This document shows positions 1,186 to 6,475 of a stretch of DNA of 64,000 bases, in pieces (the stretch's first letter is position 1; each line of letters opens with the position of its first letter). The position numbers and the translations under genes were made by a program. Origin of the DNA: Shigella phage Z31; sequence record MN655999; one strand, 5' to 3'. Below the pieces are notes generated by a model. That model had not been told where the DNA came from. It worked only from the letters and a program-made list of their open reading frames with translations, and made no database searches.

Positions 1186-1278
1186 TTGAATCTCCTAGTT
1201 TAAGGGCTTTTACTTAGTGGGGAAGGTCATTCCCTCCCCGTTGATTAGTAATTTACTTGTTTTGATATCTGATTGCAA
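1186..1278 (-). promoter_or_regulatory. A-type cassette: sigma70-like promoter (TTGCAA-17-TAAATT) + imperfect GC hairpin + shared RBS/start context
   Basis: -35 at 1273-1278, -10 at 1250-1255 (minus strand), hairpin GGGGAAGGTCATTCCCTCCCC, RBS then start. Confidence 0.4.
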
Positions 1279-1407
1279 GTAATTTTTTGAGCTTATCTAT
1301 AAAGAACCTTTTAAGTGAATCCCTTTAAGATAAACCCCCTCGAACAAAGTTACCAATGTCAATAGGTATTGTCAACACTTTTTTAAAAGTTTTTTGTAAG
1401 TTATTGA

Positions 1408-1749
1408 TTAACTGATGAATATTTTTTCAGGTTTTACGTAGCTGATACGCTGACTTTTTAGCAGGTCATCCCAGATTAACGCGGCGATATGGGTATAACC
1501 GGATTCACGTAACAACTTCATTGTTTTACATCTCGTTTCAAAACGGCTTGCATAGTACTCACTATTCAAAACAGTTTTATTCCCTTCGTTATCTGTATGG
1601 ATAATCTGCATGACTTGAAAGGGGCTGACATCCTCGCCTTTATTCCATTGCTCAAAGTATTTTAGGCACTGCATAGGTGACATCTTATCACTTACTTGAG
1701 TTGACCAAGATGAGCCAGCTTTATCAGTAATTACAGTTACGTGAGCCAT
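1408..1749 (-). CDS. hypothetical protein (113 aa)
   Basis: ORF track; ATG start with partial copy of the conserved start context. Confidence 0.5.
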   Translation of the reverse strand: MAHVTVITDKAGSSWSTQVSDKMSPMQCLKYFEQWNKGEDVSPFQVMQIIHTDNEGNKTVLNSEYYASRFETRCKTMKLLRESGYTHIAALIWDDLLKSQRISYVKPEKIFIS

Positions 1750-1796
1750 TTTCAGATTCTCCAGTTTAGGAAGTGAGATTGCTAGATACTTTATCT

Positions 1797-1943
1797 TTAC
1801 TTAAAACGGTTTACAATAGATTTTTTCTTTAAATGCAGTTTTTCTGCTTTTTTCATGGTTTTTACCAGTAACATCATGACAAATGAGAAAATCATCTCTG
1901 AGAATACAGGGTTGTTAAAAACTGTCTCAATAGTATGAGTCAT
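1797..1943 (-). CDS. small hydrophobic protein (48 aa), not in ORF track
   Basis: Hand-translated MTHTIETVFNNPVFSEMIFSFVMMLLVKTMKKAEKLHLKKKSIVNRFK; ATG preceded by conserved CTAAACTGGAGATTCAAAA context and B-type cassette. Confidence 0.4.
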   Translation of the reverse strand: MTHTIETVFNNPVFSEMIFSFVMMLLVKTMKKAEKLHLKKKSIVNRFK

Positions 1944-1945
1944 CT

Positions 1946-2015
1946 TTTTGAATCTCCAGTTTAGGAAAGCTCTTTATCTGGGGCTTAAGATATCAACTTT
2001 TAAGCCCCTTGTAAA
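1946..2015 (-). promoter_or_regulatory. B-type cassette (variant loop): TTTACA-17-TATCTT with 29-nt hairpin across spacer and -10
   Basis: Hairpin GGGGCTTAAGATATCAACTTTTAAGCCCC at 1980-2008; -35 rc at 2010-2015. Confidence 0.4.
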
Positions 2016-2020
2016 GTACT

Positions 2021-2269
2021 TTAAGCGTCTTTGTATTCGATTTCTATACACTCACCTTTTACTAGCTCAAAGGTCCAAATAATTCGTTTATACTCAATCA
2101 CTACTACAGTGACAAGGTTAGTTCTCTTCTCATTGGTTTTGAAGTCTATTGTGTGGGTATACTCATAACTAGCCTTATCCTTAATTTCCCCGTAGCGTCT
2201 ACACTCTTTATAGACTTCATCCATTAAGCCATTGCTAACCATGTTTTTTAGTTGAGTTTTAGTATACAT
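2021..2269 (-). CDS. hypothetical protein (82 aa)
   Basis: ORF track; conserved RBS GGAGG and ATG context. Confidence 0.55.
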   Translation of the reverse strand: MYTKTQLKNMVSNGLMDEVYKECRRYGEIKDKASYEYTHTIDFKTNEKRTNLVTVVVIEYKRIIWTFELVKGECIEIEYKDA

Positions 2270-2361
2270 TTTTGAACCTCCAGTTTAGGACTTTATTTAG
2301 TGGGGAAGGTTACTACCTCCCCGTTGATTGACAATTTACAGACTTTTATCAGGCTTGTCTA
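2270..2361 (-). promoter_or_regulatory. A-type cassette: TAGACA-17-TAAATT promoter + hairpin + RBS
   Basis: -35 at 2356-2361 overlapping upstream stop codon, -10 at 2333-2338, hairpin GGGGAAGGTTACTACCTCCCC. Confidence 0.4.
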
Positions 2362-2592
2362 GTCTTTTTCAATGATGATTTCATCTTGTCCGTCAACACT
2401 GTCAAAATAGATACCGTCTTCATCTTCTGTCTTAAAGTAGCATTGAATATCATCACTGGCTGGATAGTCTTGTCTTGCTATCTGGCAAACTTGAACAGCA
2501 TTCTCTTTACTCCCTGTAAACTCTTCAAGCCCTTTAAAGTCACATGAATGACCATTACAAATAGAAAGGATGAGATAAACGGTTGTAAGCAT
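2359..2592 (-). CDS. hypothetical acidic protein (77 aa) with hydrophobic N-terminus
   Basis: ORF track. Confidence 0.5.
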   Translation of the reverse strand: MLTTVYLILSICNGHSCDFKGLEEFTGSKENAVQVCQIARQDYPASDDIQCYFKTEDEDGIYFDSVDGQDEIIIEKD

Positions 2593-2658
2593 GATTAAAG
2601 CCTCCTAAAAGCCCCTGTGAGGGGCTAATCAGTGTTTATAAGGTGATTGCATAGGTTT

Positions 2659-3201
2659 TTATAAAAAGCTATTTAAATCTTTCTCTGCGATGTTTCCTGC
2701 CAGTGTGTCCATGATGTCACAAAAAACCTGAATACTATCTGACTGTTGAACACTTTTAGCGAGAAGCTCCAGAGACTCATCAAGATAGTTCATATTTGGG
2801 TTATCCAGTGAAGGAAGACAAAAAGGTGAATACATAGCGTTAAACTCTGTTACGTAAACCTTTTTAATCCAACTTACATCAAAGTACTCTGTAAAACTTG
2901 CCAGATTTGACATATTATCACAAGAATAATCATCATTTAAGTCATCCTCTGGGATATCAAGTTCCAATATAACAATATTTTGGGTTTTCATCTGGAAAGC
3001 TGCGGTAATAGCGGCATTACCTAGAGCCTGTTGGATACCTTCAGAGATTATCTCTTCCTCATCGTCGCCATAGATTTTATTTTCTGGGTACACGTAAAAA
3101 TTGCCGTCCATATCCGAACAATTCCATGCACCTGATGGCTTGTCACCGTTATTAATCAGGTTGAGGAAATTTTCTTGAGTAGTACCGTGAAAACATTTCA
3201 T
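2659..3201 (-). CDS. strongly acidic early protein (180 aa), no arginine
   Basis: ORF track; many D/E, few K, no R; early-region location. Confidence 0.55.
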   Translation of the reverse strand: MKCFHGTTQENFLNLINNGDKPSGAWNCSDMDGNFYVYPENKIYGDDEEEIISEGIQQALGNAAITAAFQMKTQNIVILELDIPEDDLNDDYSCDNMSNLASFTEYFDVSWIKKVYVTEFNAMYSPFCLPSLDNPNMNYLDESLELLAKSVQQSDSIQVFCDIMDTLAGNIAEKDLNSFL

Positions 3202-3209
3202 TTTTGAAT

Positions 3210-5069: not shown

Positions 5070-5072
5070 TTT

Positions 5073-5149
5073 TGAGTCTCCTAGTTTAAGGTTAGTTAAT
5101 AAAGCTCTTTATCTGGGGCTATCTTATCAGCTTGATAACCCCTTGTAAA
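5073..5149 (-). promoter_or_regulatory. B-type cassette: TTTACA-17-TAAGAT with hairpin (one mismatch)
   Basis: Hairpin 5115-5142; -35 rc at 5144-5149. Confidence 0.4.
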
Positions 5150-5157
5150 GTACTCTA

Positions 5158-5448
5158 TTACTTAATTTTCAGCTTTGCATGACTTCTCATTGTGCGAATA
5201 GGTGACGTCATGGCGATGCGTCTGATATATGCCTTTTTAGTGTATACATTCGTTTTCCCGATAGTGTTTACACATGTAAAAAGGTTTATTGGTGAATTTT
5301 TTAAATTCATTTGTTTATCCGCCTTCACGTTCCACCTTACAGCAGTTTGTTTTCCGTTGTCAACCACTTTCCCGCCTAACTTTTTCGCGATGATGCGAGC
5401 GTCATCACGAGTTTTTGCAGGAATTACAACGTTTTTAATAATAGCCAT
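5158..5448 (-). CDS. hypothetical basic protein (96 aa)
   Basis: ORF track. Confidence 0.5.
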   Translation of the reverse strand: MAIIKNVVIPAKTRDDARIIAKKLGGKVVDNGKQTAVRWNVKADKQMNLKNSPINLFTCVNTIGKTNVYTKKAYIRRIAMTSPIRTMRSHAKLKIK

Positions 5449-5455
5449 TTTTGAA

Positions 5456-5528
5456 TCTCCAATTTAGGATTTAGTGGTAAAGCTCTTTATCTGGGGCTTA
5501 CTGTACAGCCTTATAAGCCCCTTGTAAA
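5456..5528 (-). promoter_or_regulatory. B-type cassette: TTTACA-17-TACAGT with hairpin
   Basis: Hairpin 5493-5521; -35 rc at 5523-5528. Confidence 0.4.
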
Positions 5529-5536
5529 GTACTTTA

Positions 5537-5917
5537 TCAGTTAATTTTGAAAATTGTCACATAGCCATCACTGCCGATTATTTGAGACACTCCAGCTTTT
5601 TCTACTTGATAGCCCATATTTTCAAGATGATAAACAGCATCATCATAACCATATGCGCCACCCTGATAACGTCTCTTATCGCATCTTATCAGGTTTTTAC
5701 CACGTCCTGCAAGTGCATTCAGTACAGCTTTTTCACTTGATAGCGTACCATCTAACATGGTTGCTGTGTAATGGTTGATTCTATTCCCGTTTACATCATA
5801 CTTAAAATTGAATGCGTGAACAACGATAATGTTACCTTTAAAATTTTCATCAAGTGACTTCTCCAGTGCGTTGCGAAAGTTGTCTTTGTTGATGAATTTA
5901 GGTGCACGATAAGCCAT
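5537..5917 (-). CDS. hypothetical protein (126 aa)
   Basis: ORF track. Confidence 0.55.
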   Translation of the reverse strand: MAYRAPKFINKDNFRNALEKSLDENFKGNIIVVHAFNFKYDVNGNRINHYTATMLDGTLSSEKAVLNALAGRGKNLIRCDKRRYQGGAYGYDDAVYHLENMGYQVEKAGVSQIIGSDGYVTIFKIN

Positions 5918-5924
5918 TTTTGAA

Positions 5925-5999
5925 TCTCCTAGTTTAAGGTTAATGTAGTAAAGCTCTTTATCTGGGGCTTACTTTATCGAACTATAAGCCCCTTGTAAA
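5925..5999 (-). promoter_or_regulatory. B-type cassette: TTTACA-17-TAAAGT with hairpin
   Basis: Hairpin 5964-5992; -35 rc at 5994-5999 directly after upstream stop. Confidence 0.45.
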
Positions 6000-6005
6000 G
6001 TACTT

Positions 6006-6212
6006 TTATCTATCGTAATAGTAAACCGCTGTCTGTTTTATATGTTGCTTTGTATTCTTCGTAAGGTAGCAATTAGAATTGATTGCCGTTTCTACATAGT
6101 TGCAATAATCAGCTTCTGATATTCTACGCCATGCGCCGCACACTTGCATGTAAAAACGTTTTACCTTTGTATTAACGTTGGTTGTAACCATCAATTCACG
6201 GCTGTAAATCAT
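6006..6212 (-). CDS. hypothetical protein (68 aa)
   Basis: ORF track; 4-nt overlap with next gene. Confidence 0.45.
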   Translation of the reverse strand: MIYSRELMVTTNVNTKVKRFYMQVCGAWRRISEADYCNYVETAINSNCYLTKNTKQHIKQTAVYYYDR

Positions 6213-6400
6213 TTTTTAGTGCTCCATTTTTCGAACAATTCAGCAGGGAAACGTTCGCTATATCCTTTTAGTGAAAATGTTCCATCTTCGTGGATAGCTT
6301 CCACCTGATAAACCTTGTAAGAGCGAATAGTTAACATTTTGTAAGAGTATTCATGTTTTACGTTAACCTCGTCGCCAACTTTGATTTTTCTTGATGCCAT
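6209..6400 (-). CDS. hypothetical protein (63 aa)
   Basis: ORF track; preceded by A-type cassette. Confidence 0.45.
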   Translation of the reverse strand: MASRKIKVGDEVNVKHEYSYKMLTIRSYKVYQVEAIHEDGTFSLKGYSERFPAELFEKWSTKK

Positions 6401-6475
6401 CTTTTGAATCTCCTAGTTTAAGGGTTTTACTTAGTGGGGAAGGTCATTCCCTCCCCGTTGATGCAAATACTAGAT
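6401..6475 (-). promoter_or_regulatory. A-type cassette variant: TTGACT-17-TAGTAT + hairpin + RBS
   Basis: Hairpin GGGGAAGGTCATTCCCTCCCC; -35 rc at 6470-6475. Confidence 0.35.

What the first reader, a model, noticed from the sequence alone, without database searches (positions are those of the whole stretch)
1186..6475. A-type early cassettes: promoter-like hexamers followed by a leader hairpin and the GTTGATTAGTAATTTA box (5 copies plus a variant)
Seen: copies at 1186-1278, 2270-2361, 3491-3582, 4357-4450 and 6401-6475. On the minus strand each reads TTGACA/TTGCAA/TAGACA, 17 nt, TAAATT (variant TAGTAT), then ACTAATCAACGGGG, an imperfect GC hairpin, and the shared RBS. Here the hairpin lies downstream of the predicted start, so it would be in the 5' UTR. 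A-type and B-type cassettes alternate along the early region, so neighbouring small genes would be differently regulated.
Basis: seen in the sequence. Interest (0 to 1): 0.55.

Follow-up and report, generated by a model that had tools for sequence, protein, structure and literature searches.

The report
Repeated early promoter–hairpin–RBS cassettes
The window comes from a Felix O1-like phage whose early small genes are each preceded by a copy of a portable module (host-type promoter, short GC hairpin at the start of the transcript, standard ribosome site), which resembles the "PeSL" cassettes known from T4-like phages, so it is real but of a known kind.

Summary
Five A-type cassettes lie on the minus strand at 6398-6507, 4354-4462, 3488-3594, 2267-2373 and 1182-1290. 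A sixth, chimeric copy (promoter and box only) lies at 588-679. The window is a Felixounavirus, about 89-90% identical to E. coli O157 typing phages.

In 12 related genomes the -35 hexamer sits exactly 17 nt from the -10 in 46 of 48 copies, although there are 28 different spacers. TTG of the -35 and T1, A2 and T6 of the -10 are the best conserved bases, and an A-tract sits near -43. These are therefore very probably sigma-70 early promoters.

The 8-bp hairpin starts 10 nt after the -10, at about +3/+4 of its own transcript, and has no U-tract. Covariation support for it is weak. My best reading is a 5'-terminal stabiliser hairpin inside a portable promoter/RBS module, where the module also serves as recombination homology. 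Breakpoints between relatives cluster in the cassettes, and chimeric cassettes exist.

The closest known kind is the PeSL cassette of T4-like phages. The repeats are already annotated in GenBank and noted in the Felix O1 paper, but without a function. A different timing for A- and B-driven genes is not supported by the only (crude) data available.

The parts
6398..6507 (-). A-type cassette, leader variant, first of the early cluster. AT-rich upstream tract; -35 TTGACT 6495-6490; -10 TAGTAT 6472-6467; box TTGCATCAAC 6466-6457; hairpin GGGGAGGGAATGACCTTCCCC 6456-6436; A-rich linker and GGAG ribosome site; ATG 6400-6398 of a 63-aa gene.
4354..4462 (-). A-type cassette. -35 TTGACA 4450-4445; -10 TAAATT 4427-4422; box ACTAATCAAC 4421-4412 (predicted start about 4414); hairpin GGGGAGGTAATGACCTTCCCC 4411-4391; ATG 4356-4354 of a 90-aa gene.
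3488..3594 (-). A-type cassette. -35 TTGACA 3582-3577; -10 TAAATT 3559-3554; box 3553-3544; hairpin 3543-3523; ATG 3490-3488 of a 67-aa gene. Identical to the 4462 copy over 65 nt, from the -35 to ACTAA.
2267..2373 (-). A-type cassette, box variant. -35 TAGACA 2361-2356, whose TAG is the stop codon of the upstream 77-aa gene; -10 TAAATT 2338-2333; box GTCAATCAAC 2332-2323; hairpin GGGGAGGTAGTAACCTTCCCC 2322-2302; ATG 2269-2267 of an 82-aa gene.
1182..1290 (-). A-type cassette. -35 TTGCAA 1278-1273; -10 TAAATT 1255-1250; box 1249-1240; hairpin GGGGAGGGAATGACCTTCCCC 1239-1219; GTG 1184-1182 of a 176-aa gene.
588..679 (-). Chimeric end element. An A-type promoter and box: TTGACG 679-674, 17 nt, TAAATT 656-651 (its TAA is the stop codon of the 176-aa gene), ACTAATCAAC 650-641. 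The box is joined directly to the operon-end hairpin GGGGCTAAATAGCCCC 640-625, with its B-like tail AGATAC, and to an intrinsic terminator 612-588. In Felix O1, wV8 and others, one or two genes lie between these parts.
1944..6005 (-). Six B-type cassettes interleaved with the A-type: 6005-5918, 5536-5449, 5157-5070, 4083-3998, 3286-3202 and 2020-1944. Each runs: stop codon, AAGTAC-TTTACA (-35), 17 nt, TAnnnT (-10), with the hairpin GGGGCTTA...TAAGCCCC spanning the spacer and -10, then AGATAAAGAGCTTTAC and the same ribosome site.
1750..1796 (-). Degenerate cassette remnant before the 113-aa gene: AGATAAAG...CACTTCCTAAACTGGAGAATCTGAAA. It has no promoter or hairpin, and it is a recurrent homology breakpoint.

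Best explanation
The A-type element is a portable early-expression module of a Felix O1-like phage.

Its upstream half is a sigma-70 promoter: an A-tract near -43, a TTGACA-like -35, a 17-nt spacer and a TAAATT -10. This half differs from site to site and often overlaps the end of the upstream gene.

Its downstream half is a constant stretch of about 75 nt. It holds the invariant ATCAAC start region, an 8-bp GC hairpin, an A-rich linker and a GGAG ribosome site 7-9 nt before the start codon.

Host RNA polymerase would start 7-9 nt after the -10, so each transcript would begin with 2-4 unpaired bases followed by the hairpin. I infer that this 5'-terminal stem-loop protects the short early mRNAs from 5'-end-dependent decay (RppH and RNase E). 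On read-through RNA from upstream promoters it may act as a barrier or weak attenuator.

At the DNA level the repeated cassettes provide homology, and recombination between them adds, removes or swaps small genes of unknown function, as proposed for PeSLs in T4-like phages.

Shown here: the repeat family, the promoter-type conservation pattern, the hairpin's fixed position, and the clustering of breakpoints with chimeric cassettes. Inferred: promoter activity, the start site, the stabilising role, and the recombination mechanism.
For: Identity of the phage: a Felixounavirus, with 254 matching phage records and best matches at 89-90% identity.

Promoter:
- 46 of 48 copies in 12 genomes have a -35 (TTGACA 16, TTGCAA 14, TAGACA 7, TTGACT 4, TTGACG 4) exactly 17 nt from the -10 (TAAATT 34 times). 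They carry 28 distinct spacers.
- Information content peaks at TTG of the -35, at T1, A2 and T6 of the -10, and at an A-tract at about -43.
- The sequence upstream of the -35 is 76% AT, against 61% for the window.

Hairpin:
- It is stable in all five copies.
- It sits 10 nt after the -10 in essentially all copies.
- 92.5% of cells are paired over 127 distinct sequences. The commonest state of pair 6 is G.U (79 sequences), which fits folding of the sense-strand RNA.
- It has no U-tract and is not called terminator-like.
- The ribosome site stays unpaired in the folds.

Modularity and recombination:
- 20 of 33 distinct homology breakpoints against 11 relatives fall inside cassettes, which cover 23% of the region (p = 4e-6). 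Six more lie within 5 nt of a cassette.
- Two junctions fall exactly at ATCA|hairpin: window 6454 and 640/641.
- Scars in relatives: ST11 has two tandem A cassettes around a 34-aa remnant, and Michonne has a B-B fusion and a duplication flanked by B cassettes.
- Copies are more alike within a genome (0.861) than between genomes at different genes (0.825, p = 2e-6).
- The window's 4462 and 3594 copies share derived states that the orthologous copies in relatives lack.

Gene content: all 10 neighbouring proteins tested fall in PHROG families of unknown function and have no Pfam match.

Prior knowledge:
- PeSL papers PMC2839356 and PMC4122927.
- 5'-stem-loop stabilisation: Emory, Bouvet and Belasco 1992, listed in PMC3997798. 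The content of those papers is cited from my own knowledge.
Against: - No transcript mapping exists for this phage group in the library searched. Promoter use and the start site are therefore predictions.
- Covariation for the A hairpin is weak. Shuffled controls still pair at 91.0%, and sliding the 3' partner by -1 pairs at 92.0%, because the arms are G and C runs. Only 10 cells in 3 pairs show changes on both sides. Conservation of the sequence for another reason is not excluded.
- Breakpoints at cassettes are partly expected anyway. Cassettes fill nearly all intergenic space, and selection removes breakpoints inside genes.
- The within-genome similarity excess is small, and the sequence pairs are not independent.
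- PeSL stem-loops were reported to act as terminators (PMC2839356), so a terminator or attenuator role for this hairpin cannot be dismissed.
Confidence: 0.6

Rival explanations
1. The hairpin is mainly a transcription attenuator or insulator, which is the function claimed for PeSL stem-loops. It would stop or reduce read-through from upstream promoters, and perhaps part of its own promoter's output, so that each small gene is expressed mostly from its own cassette.
For: - A PeSL stem-loop lowered lacZ expression as much as rrnB T1 (PMC2839356).
- The GenBank record MZ726791 labels the same hairpin 'rho-independent terminator predicted by WebGeSTer' directly after a 'promoter'.
- The 9 nt after the hairpin (ACUAAAUAA) are A/U-rich, which gives a weak RNA-DNA hybrid.
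- A 2026 preprint abstract reports widespread promoter-terminator coupling in bacteria. I saw only the title and abstract.
Against: - There is no U-tract, with 1-2 U in the 8 nt after the stem, so the consensus scan does not call these sites terminators.
- The hairpin lies 3-4 nt downstream of its own predicted start, so an efficient terminator would abort its own transcripts.
- True terminators with T-runs do exist at the ends of the cluster (6894-6853 and 612-588) and between the 180-aa and 77-aa genes.
Confidence: 0.2
2. The hairpin and the invariant ATCAAC/ACTAA flanks are a recognition site for a protein. This could be a phage or host RNA-binding protein or endoribonuclease that times the shut-off or processing of early mRNAs, in the manner of T4 RegA or RegB. 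It could also be a DNA-level site for a recombinase or nuclease.
For: - Sequence, not only pairing, is highly conserved. ATCAACGG carries near-maximal information, and G4/C4 are almost invariant.
- Two independent recombination joints fall exactly at the box/hairpin boundary.
- All cassettes use a GGAG ribosome site in a conserved context. From my own knowledge, GGAG is the motif that T4 RegB cleaves.
Against: - No candidate binding protein was identified.
- No Rfam family matches.
- Hairpin variants with different inner stems and loops replace one another freely between genomes, which argues against a strict sequence-specific site.
- Joints at the box are also what plain homologous recombination between repeats would give.
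Confidence: 0.1
3. The hairpin has no function of its own. The constant 75-nt segment is simply a duplicated promoter-proximal leader that spread with gene cassettes and is kept similar by gene conversion.
For: - Covariation is hardly above the controls.
- There is concerted evolution within genomes.
- Some copies have degraded stems: GGGGAGGCAATAAACACCCC at -6.0 kcal/mol in wV8 and TP15, and GGGGAGGCAATAACATCCCC at -7.1.
Against: - A GC hairpin at the same distance from the -10 persists in Mooglevirus (GGGGAGGGAAACTTCCCC, GGGGCAAGATAAAGCCCC) and Suspvirus (GGGGAAGAAATCACTTCCCC, GGGCAAGCAAGCCC), although the sequence has changed.
- 24 of the 27 Ounavirinae variants fold at -9.5 kcal/mol or better.
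- A few changes are compensatory: A-U to G-C at pair 5 in 6 sequences, and G-C to C-G at pair 4 in 2.
Confidence: 0.1

Closest known systems
PeSL (promoter-early stem-loop) cassettes of T4-like phages RB49/phi1, T4/PST and KVP40/nt-1 (Arbiol et al. 2010, PMC2839356; Comeau et al. 2014, PMC4122927)
   Same: - Repeated intergenic modules of about 100 bp.
- An AT-rich tract, a sigma-70-like -35 and -10 at 17 nt, and a Gn-loop-Cn stem-loop whose position relative to the promoter varies by subclass. The described subclasses include 'downstream of the -10' (like A-type) and 'between or overlapping the boxes' (like B-type).
- A Shine-Dalgarno site and start codon at the 3' end, and the upstream stop codon at the 5' end.
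- Clustering in a region of small genes of unknown function.
- Association with insertions, deletions and replacements between close relatives.
   Different: - The host phage is from a different lineage (Ounavirinae, not T4-like), and I saw no sequence similarity, so this is an analogue rather than a homologue.
- Only two sharply defined classes occur here, each largely tied to particular downstream genes across genera.
- The A-type hairpin is entirely inside the transcript and lacks a U-tract, so the terminator role claimed for PeSL stem-loops is doubtful for it.
- Promoter, terminator and mini-circle activities were shown experimentally for PeSLs and for none of the elements here.
5'-terminal stabiliser stem-loops of E. 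coli mRNAs (ompA and papA 5' UTRs; Emory, Bouvet and Belasco 1992, listed in PMC3997798)
   Same: A stable hairpin within a few unpaired nucleotides of the 5' end of the mRNA, followed by an unstructured ribosome site.
   Different: The position here rests on a predicted start site. No half-life data exist. The hairpin is part of a multi-copy cassette rather than a single-gene leader.
Direct repeats already recorded in Felix O1 and wV8, and promoter/terminator features in the vB_EcoM_ASO1A record
   Same: These are the same sequences:
- the Felix O1 39-bp repeat TTGACACTGG...AATTACACATCAAC and the 57-bp repeat CTTTACATGGGGCTTAAAAG... (PMC3185647);
- wV8 repeat features DR_2, DR_3, DR_5 and DR_8;
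- ASO1A 'promoter' plus 'terminator' features.
   Different: Those sources list them as repeats or as automated predictions. They give no cassette model, comparative analysis or function.
T7 early-region RNase III processing hairpins (from my own knowledge)
   Same: Intergenic hairpins lie between small early genes on read-through RNA. The B-type element folds into a 19-bp interrupted helix that is register-specific (95.7% paired, against 33-58% when slid) and shows three pairs with compensatory changes.
   Different: The A-type stem is only 8 bp, too short for RNase III. No cleavage data exist. The B-type element also contains a promoter.

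Membership tests
PeSL-type regulatory cassette | A sigma-70-like early promoter: -35 and -10 boxes about 17 nt apart, with an AT-rich region upstream | tested here: met
   46 of 48 copies have 17-nt spacing with 28 different spacers. Conservation peaks at TTG and TAnnnT, and an A-tract sits near -43. This is sequence evidence only.
PeSL-type regulatory cassette | A stable stem-loop with G-run and C-run arms placed in or next to the promoter | tested here: met
   An 8-bp G4.../...C4 hairpin at -12.7 to -13.7 kcal/mol lies 10 nt after the -10. 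Covariation is weak.
PeSL-type regulatory cassette | The cassette is bounded by the upstream stop codon and by the Shine-Dalgarno site and start codon of the downstream gene | tested here: met
   Stop codons lie inside the -35 (TAGACA at 2361-2359) or the -10 (TAAATT at 656-654). GGAG sits 7-9 nt before the ATG or GTG.
PeSL-type regulatory cassette | Many copies clustered in a variable region of small genes without known function | tested here: met
   Eleven cassettes and one chimera lie within 588-6507 and none elsewhere in the 64 kb. All 10 proteins tested have unknown function. Gene content varies between relatives.
PeSL-type regulatory cassette | Insertions, deletions and replacements between close relatives have their ends in the cassettes | tested here: met
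   20 of 33 breakpoints fall inside cassettes that cover 23% of the region. Chimeric cassettes occur in the window, ST11, Michonne and Mushroom. The caveat is that cassettes fill most of the intergenic space.
PeSL-type regulatory cassette | The stem-loop acts as a transcription terminator or attenuator in vivo | not testable with these tools
   The sequence argues against a canonical terminator for A-type, since there is no U-tract. Function was not measured.
PeSL-type regulatory cassette | Recombination between neighbouring cassettes yields mini-circles | not testable with these tools
   This needs inverse PCR on infected cells or virions.
PeSL-type regulatory cassette | Occurs in T4-like myoviruses, the group in which the family was defined | tested here: not met
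   The window is a Felixounavirus of the Ounavirinae. I therefore treat the element as working like a PeSL, not as a homologous member of that family.
Intrinsic (rho-independent) terminator | A GC-rich hairpin followed at once by a run of U | tested here: not met
   ACTAAGTAAAA follows the stem, and the scan does not list the five hairpins as terminator-like.
RNase III processing site | About two helical turns (roughly 20 bp) of double-stranded RNA | tested here: not met
   The A-type stem is 8 bp. The B-type element does reach 19 bp.
5'-terminal stabiliser stem-loop | The hairpin begins within about 2-4 unpaired nucleotides of the transcript's 5' end | tested here: inconclusive
   The fixed 10-nt gap between the -10 and the stem predicts 2-4 unpaired nt. 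No mapped 5' ends were found.
N4-type hairpin promoters for a virion RNA polymerase | A 5-7 bp stem with a 3-nt loop, read by a phage-encoded polymerase (features recalled from my own knowledge) | tested here: not met
   The loops are 4-7 nt and consensus sigma-70 hexamers are present. Felix O1 encodes no RNA polymerase, according to PMC3185647.
Any curated RNA family (Rfam 15) | A match at or near the family's gathering score | tested here: not met
   Only two chance-level hits (E = 0.33 and 0.95), far below their gathering scores and unrelated to the cassettes.

The most novel reading that the evidence does not exclude
The two cassette classes may encode a built-in code for mRNA ends. A-type promoters would start 2-4 nt before their hairpin, so their mRNAs carry a protected 5' end. 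B-type promoters would start right after theirs, so their own mRNAs have an open, AU-rich 5' end. The long B helix would form only on read-through RNA, where it could be cut or could cap the 3' end of the upstream message. The near-constant assignment of A or B to particular genes across three genera would then set different lifetimes for neighbouring early messages without any phage-encoded regulator.
Probability: 0.2. Interest if true: 0.5.

Novelty: new member of a known kind. Interest (0 to 1): 0.3.

Why it matters
The result explains a set of repeats that the Felix O1 and wV8 genome descriptions list without any function. It also gives a concrete transcription map to test for the early region of a widely used group of typing and biocontrol phages.

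It extends the PeSL idea beyond T4-like phages. In that idea, promoter, stem-loop and ribosome-site modules double as recombination handles for shuffling small accessory genes. Finding them in another lineage suggests a convergent solution among large lytic phages.

In practice, the cassettes are compact, host-polymerase-driven expression units that could be reused in phage engineering. They also mark where accessory genes can be swapped.

Tried and rejected
- Rfam: a permissive search of 1-9000 gave nothing relevant.
- Intrinsic terminator: rejected for A-type because there is no U-tract, although one GenBank record labels it a terminator.
- RNase III site: rejected for A-type, whose stem is only 8 bp.
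- N4-like hairpin promoter: rejected, because sigma-70 hexamers are present and the phage encodes no RNA polymerase.
- Formal covariation for the A hairpin (covariance model R1, 150 hits): the result barely exceeds the controls, so I do not claim the structure is proven by covariation.
- IMG/VR scan with ATCAAC-GGGG...CCCC-ACTAA: besides contigs of about 88 kb (the Ounavirinae genome size), it found four unrelated single sites (L015/L020/L056, L026/L045/L046, L041=L065, L048). These are hairpins after stop codons with no promoter and no repetition. My rough estimate is about ten chance matches for such a pattern, so I set them aside.
- Literature: I looked for transcript-start or RNA-seq data on Felix O1-like phages and found none. 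The wV8 paper does not discuss promoters or repeats.
- Genome end: I considered that the cluster sits at the end of the genome that enters the cell first. In UAB_Phi87, whose 608-bp terminal repeats were mapped, the cluster lies about 16-22 kb from the left end, so I dropped the idea.
- Interchangeable cassette types: I first thought type was freely interchangeable between genes. The table shows it is mostly conserved per gene, so I corrected that.
- One preprint on promoter-terminator coupling could not be opened.

Full report
**What the window is.** The region 600-7000 matches 254 phage records. Nearly all are Felix O1-like myoviruses of Escherichia, Salmonella, Shigella and Citrobacter, and the best matches are 89-90% identical (E. 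coli O157 typing phages, phiWec177, wV8). Genes in 600-14000 run on the minus strand. The finding lies in a 5.9-kb cluster of 16 small genes. The cluster is bounded by a terminator after the macro-domain gene (6894-6853) and by a terminator at 612-588.

**Check of the observation.**
- The core CAAC-GGGGAGG-N6-CCTTCCCC-ACTAA occurs five times, against none in 100 shuffles.
- The repeat finder returns the same five as one family (D2).
- A covariance model built from 13 copies, five from the window and eight from six relatives, hits only these five places in the 64-kb window.
- Each copy reads, on the minus strand: an AT-rich tract, a -35 (TTGACT, TTGACA, TTGACA, TAGACA, TTGCAA), exactly 17 nt, a -10 (TAGTAT once, TAAATT four times), a 10-nt box ending in ATCAAC, a 21-nt hairpin, an A-rich linker, GGAG, and the start codon.
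- A sixth copy of the promoter and box (679-641) is joined to a different hairpin and a real terminator.

**Is it a promoter?** I collected the homologous region from 12 annotated relatives in four genera: Felixounavirus, Mooglevirus, Suspvirus and Kolesnikvirus.
- In 46 of 48 A-type copies a recognisable -35 lies exactly 17 nt from the -10, although there are 28 different spacer sequences.
- Per-position information is highest at TTG of the -35 and at T1, A2 and T6 of the -10. It is low in the spacer and high again in an A-tract near -43.
- The 22 nt upstream of the -35 are 76% AT, against 61% for the window.
- This is the pattern expected of a selected sigma-70 promoter with a UP-like element, not of a repeat that is merely copied.
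- In several copies the promoter overlaps the end of the upstream gene. The TAG of TAGACA (2361-2359) and the TAA of TAAATT (656-654) are stop codons.
- The upstream half is therefore site-specific, and only the stretch from the -10 to the start codon is the constant repeat.

**The hairpin.**
- It folds as 8 bp with one G.U pair, at -12.7 to -13.7 kcal/mol for the hairpin alone. The ribosome site stays open.
- It begins 10 nt after the -10 in essentially every copy (9 nt in one SUSP2 copy). A start 7-9 nt after the -10 would leave 2-4 unpaired bases before the stem.
- I found no transcript mapping for this phage group.
- An IMG/VR scan and the relatives gave 27 hairpin variants within the Ounavirinae, and 24 of them fold at -9.5 kcal/mol or better.
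- The formal covariation test is weak. Over 127 distinct sequences 92.5% of cells pair. Shuffles pair at 91.0%, and sliding the 3' arm by one column pairs at 92.0%, because the arms are G and C runs. Only 10 cells in 3 pairs change on both sides.
- The commonest state of pair 6 is G.U (79 sequences), which fits folding of the sense-strand RNA.
- No U-tract follows the stem, and the scan does not call it a terminator. One GenBank record nevertheless labels it a terminator directly after a predicted promoter.
- No Rfam family matches.

**The B-type partner.**
- Six B cassettes lie between the A cassettes.
- They also carry a promoter-like pair, TTTACA-17-TAnnnT. T1, A2 and T6 of the -10 are kept while the three middle bases vary between copies and genomes.
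- Here the hairpin spans the spacer and the -10, so a transcript from the B promoter would begin just after it.
- On read-through RNA the element folds into a 19-bp interrupted helix (z = -4.1).
- That helix is register-specific: 95.7% of cells pair, against 33-58% when the partner is slid. Three pairs show compensatory changes, including GGGG/CCCC to GGTG/CACC in an Erwinia phage.
- Both classes share the same ribosome-site context, which occurs nowhere else in the window.

**Evidence that cassettes are recombination handles.**
- Gene order differs between relatives by the presence or absence of single small genes.
- Against 11 relatives, 20 of 33 distinct homology breakpoints fall inside cassettes, which cover 23% of the region (binomial p = 4e-6). 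Six more lie within 5 nt of a cassette's start codon.
- Two joints fall exactly at the boundary between box and hairpin. At 6454 the leader promoter is joined to an A hairpin here, but to a short GGGCAAGCAAGCCC hairpin in Felix O1, TP15, tootiki and SflM004. At 640/641 the box is joined to the operon-end hairpin, and the one or two genes present at that place in Felix O1, wV8, ASO1A and H12 are missing.
- Relatives carry scars. ST11 has two tandem A cassettes around a 34-aa remnant. Michonne has a B cassette whose ATG runs straight into the next B cassette, and a duplicated gene flanked by B cassettes.
- Copies are slightly but significantly more alike within a genome than across genomes (0.861 against 0.825).
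- The window's 4462 and 3594 copies are identical over 65 nt and share states that the orthologous copies elsewhere lack.
- Caveats: cassettes fill almost all intergenic space, so breakpoints that survive selection would fall there anyway, and the sequence pairs compared are not independent.

**A versus B regulation.** Cassette type is mostly conserved per downstream gene.
- Five gene families are always preceded by A: the window's 90-aa, 67-aa and 176-aa genes and two genes absent from the window.
- Four gene families are always preceded by B.
- Three families switch type.

In Felix O1 the end-point RT-PCR table shows no split by class. The A-driven ORFs 21 and 22 peak at 5 min and ORFs 19 and 23 at 25 min. 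The B-driven ORFs 16 and 20 peak at 5 min and ORF 17 at 25 min. Those data are crude. Different timing is therefore not supported. A difference in mRNA 5'-end protection remains possible but is untested.

**Comparison with what is known.**
- The closest described kind is the PeSL cassette of T4-like phages. PeSLs are repeated intergenic modules with an AT-rich tract, a sigma-70-like promoter, a Gn-loop-Cn stem-loop at subclass-specific positions (including 'downstream of the -10' and 'between or overlapping the boxes'), and a Shine-Dalgarno site with start codon. They concentrate among small genes of unknown function and at insertions and deletions between close relatives (PMC2839356, PMC4122927).
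- All sequence-level features of that description are met here. Promoter, terminator and mini-circle activities cannot be tested with these tools.
- The phage lineage is different, so I treat the cassettes as analogues, not homologues.
- In the library searched, the term PeSL appears in four papers and none concerns Felix O1-like phages.
- The repeats themselves are not new. The Felix O1 paper lists the 39-bp and 57-bp direct repeats without a function. The wV8 record annotates them as DR features. The ASO1A record annotates them as promoter plus terminator.
- All ten neighbouring proteins tested fall in PHROG families of unknown function and have no Pfam match.

**Verdict.** The feature is real and far from chance. 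It is very probably a set of host-polymerase early promoters, each followed by a transcribed hairpin and a standard ribosome site. The hairpin most plausibly stabilises the 5' end of the message, and the repeated module most plausibly serves as homology for shuffling accessory genes. It is a new member of a known kind and of moderate to low surprise. The main open points are the transcript start sites and the role of the hairpin, and both are directly testable.

Noticed in passing
window 6672-6853 (minus strand): Four iteron-like repeats of about 25 nt (TTTTCATTTTCAAAnTGTGCAGGTA) lie at 6853-6829, 6780-6756, 6741-6717 and 6696-6672. They sit in the roughly 360-nt gene-free gap between the terminator (6894-6853) and the leader promoter (-35 at 6495-6490). 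A similar array of four (TTTTTCATTTTCAATTTGTGCATAG) occupies the same place in Erwinia phage FIfi106 (L006, about 5560-5720), so it is conserved across the subfamily. It may be an operator array or a replication origin.
   Followed up: partly
window 588-679 (minus strand): A complete A-type promoter (TTGACG-17-TAAATT) now feeds directly into a 16-nt hairpin and an intrinsic terminator. That would give a transcript of about 55 nt with no coding sequence. It looks like a by-product of the deletion of the one or two genes found here in Felix O1 and wV8. Salmonella phage Mushroom has the same arrangement.
   Followed up: partly
window 1295-1407 (minus strand): A conserved non-coding stretch lies between the 113-aa gene and the 1290 cassette. 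It has two overlapping TTGACA motifs (TTGACAATACCTATTGACATTGGTAACTT) followed by GTTCGAGGGGGTTTATC. It is kept in ASO1A, tootiki, Michonne and SUSP2. It may be an extra promoter or a small RNA.
   Followed up: no
window 1944-6005 (six B-type cassettes): B-type elements fold into a 19-bp interrupted helix that includes the -35 flank and the first 15 nt after the predicted start. The helix shows compensatory changes in relatives and several U.G pairs, which fits sense-strand RNA. It resembles an RNase III substrate on read-through RNA.
   Followed up: partly
window 2600-2658 (minus strand): Between the 180-aa and 77-aa genes there is no cassette. Instead there is a terminator-like hairpin, GCCCCTCACAGGGGC followed by TTTT, that runs into the AGGAGG ribosome site of the next gene. 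The wV8 record annotates the orthologous site as a rho-independent terminator. It would split the cluster into two transcription units.
   Followed up: no
window 1-600: This stretch is gene-free and rich in short repeats (CTTGTTAGC, CTATAAAG, CTTTACA). It is the start of a gene-free region of about 1.6 kb seen at the same place in Felix O1, ST11, SUSP2 and Mushroom.
   Followed up: no
L015/L020/L056, L026/L045/L046, L041 (=L065), L048 (IMG/VR contigs): Unrelated phage contigs carry TAATCAAC, a perfect GC hairpin and ACTAAC just after a stop codon. This matches the flanks of the A-type hairpin. These are single sites without promoters, and their number is about what chance predicts for the search pattern.
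   Followed up: partly
L004 (Citrobacter phage Michonne) 4599-5450: A tandem duplication of about 430 bp holds a small gene flanked by B cassettes. Next to it, a B cassette's ATG is fused directly to the CTTTACAT of the following B cassette, with no gene between them.
   Followed up: partly
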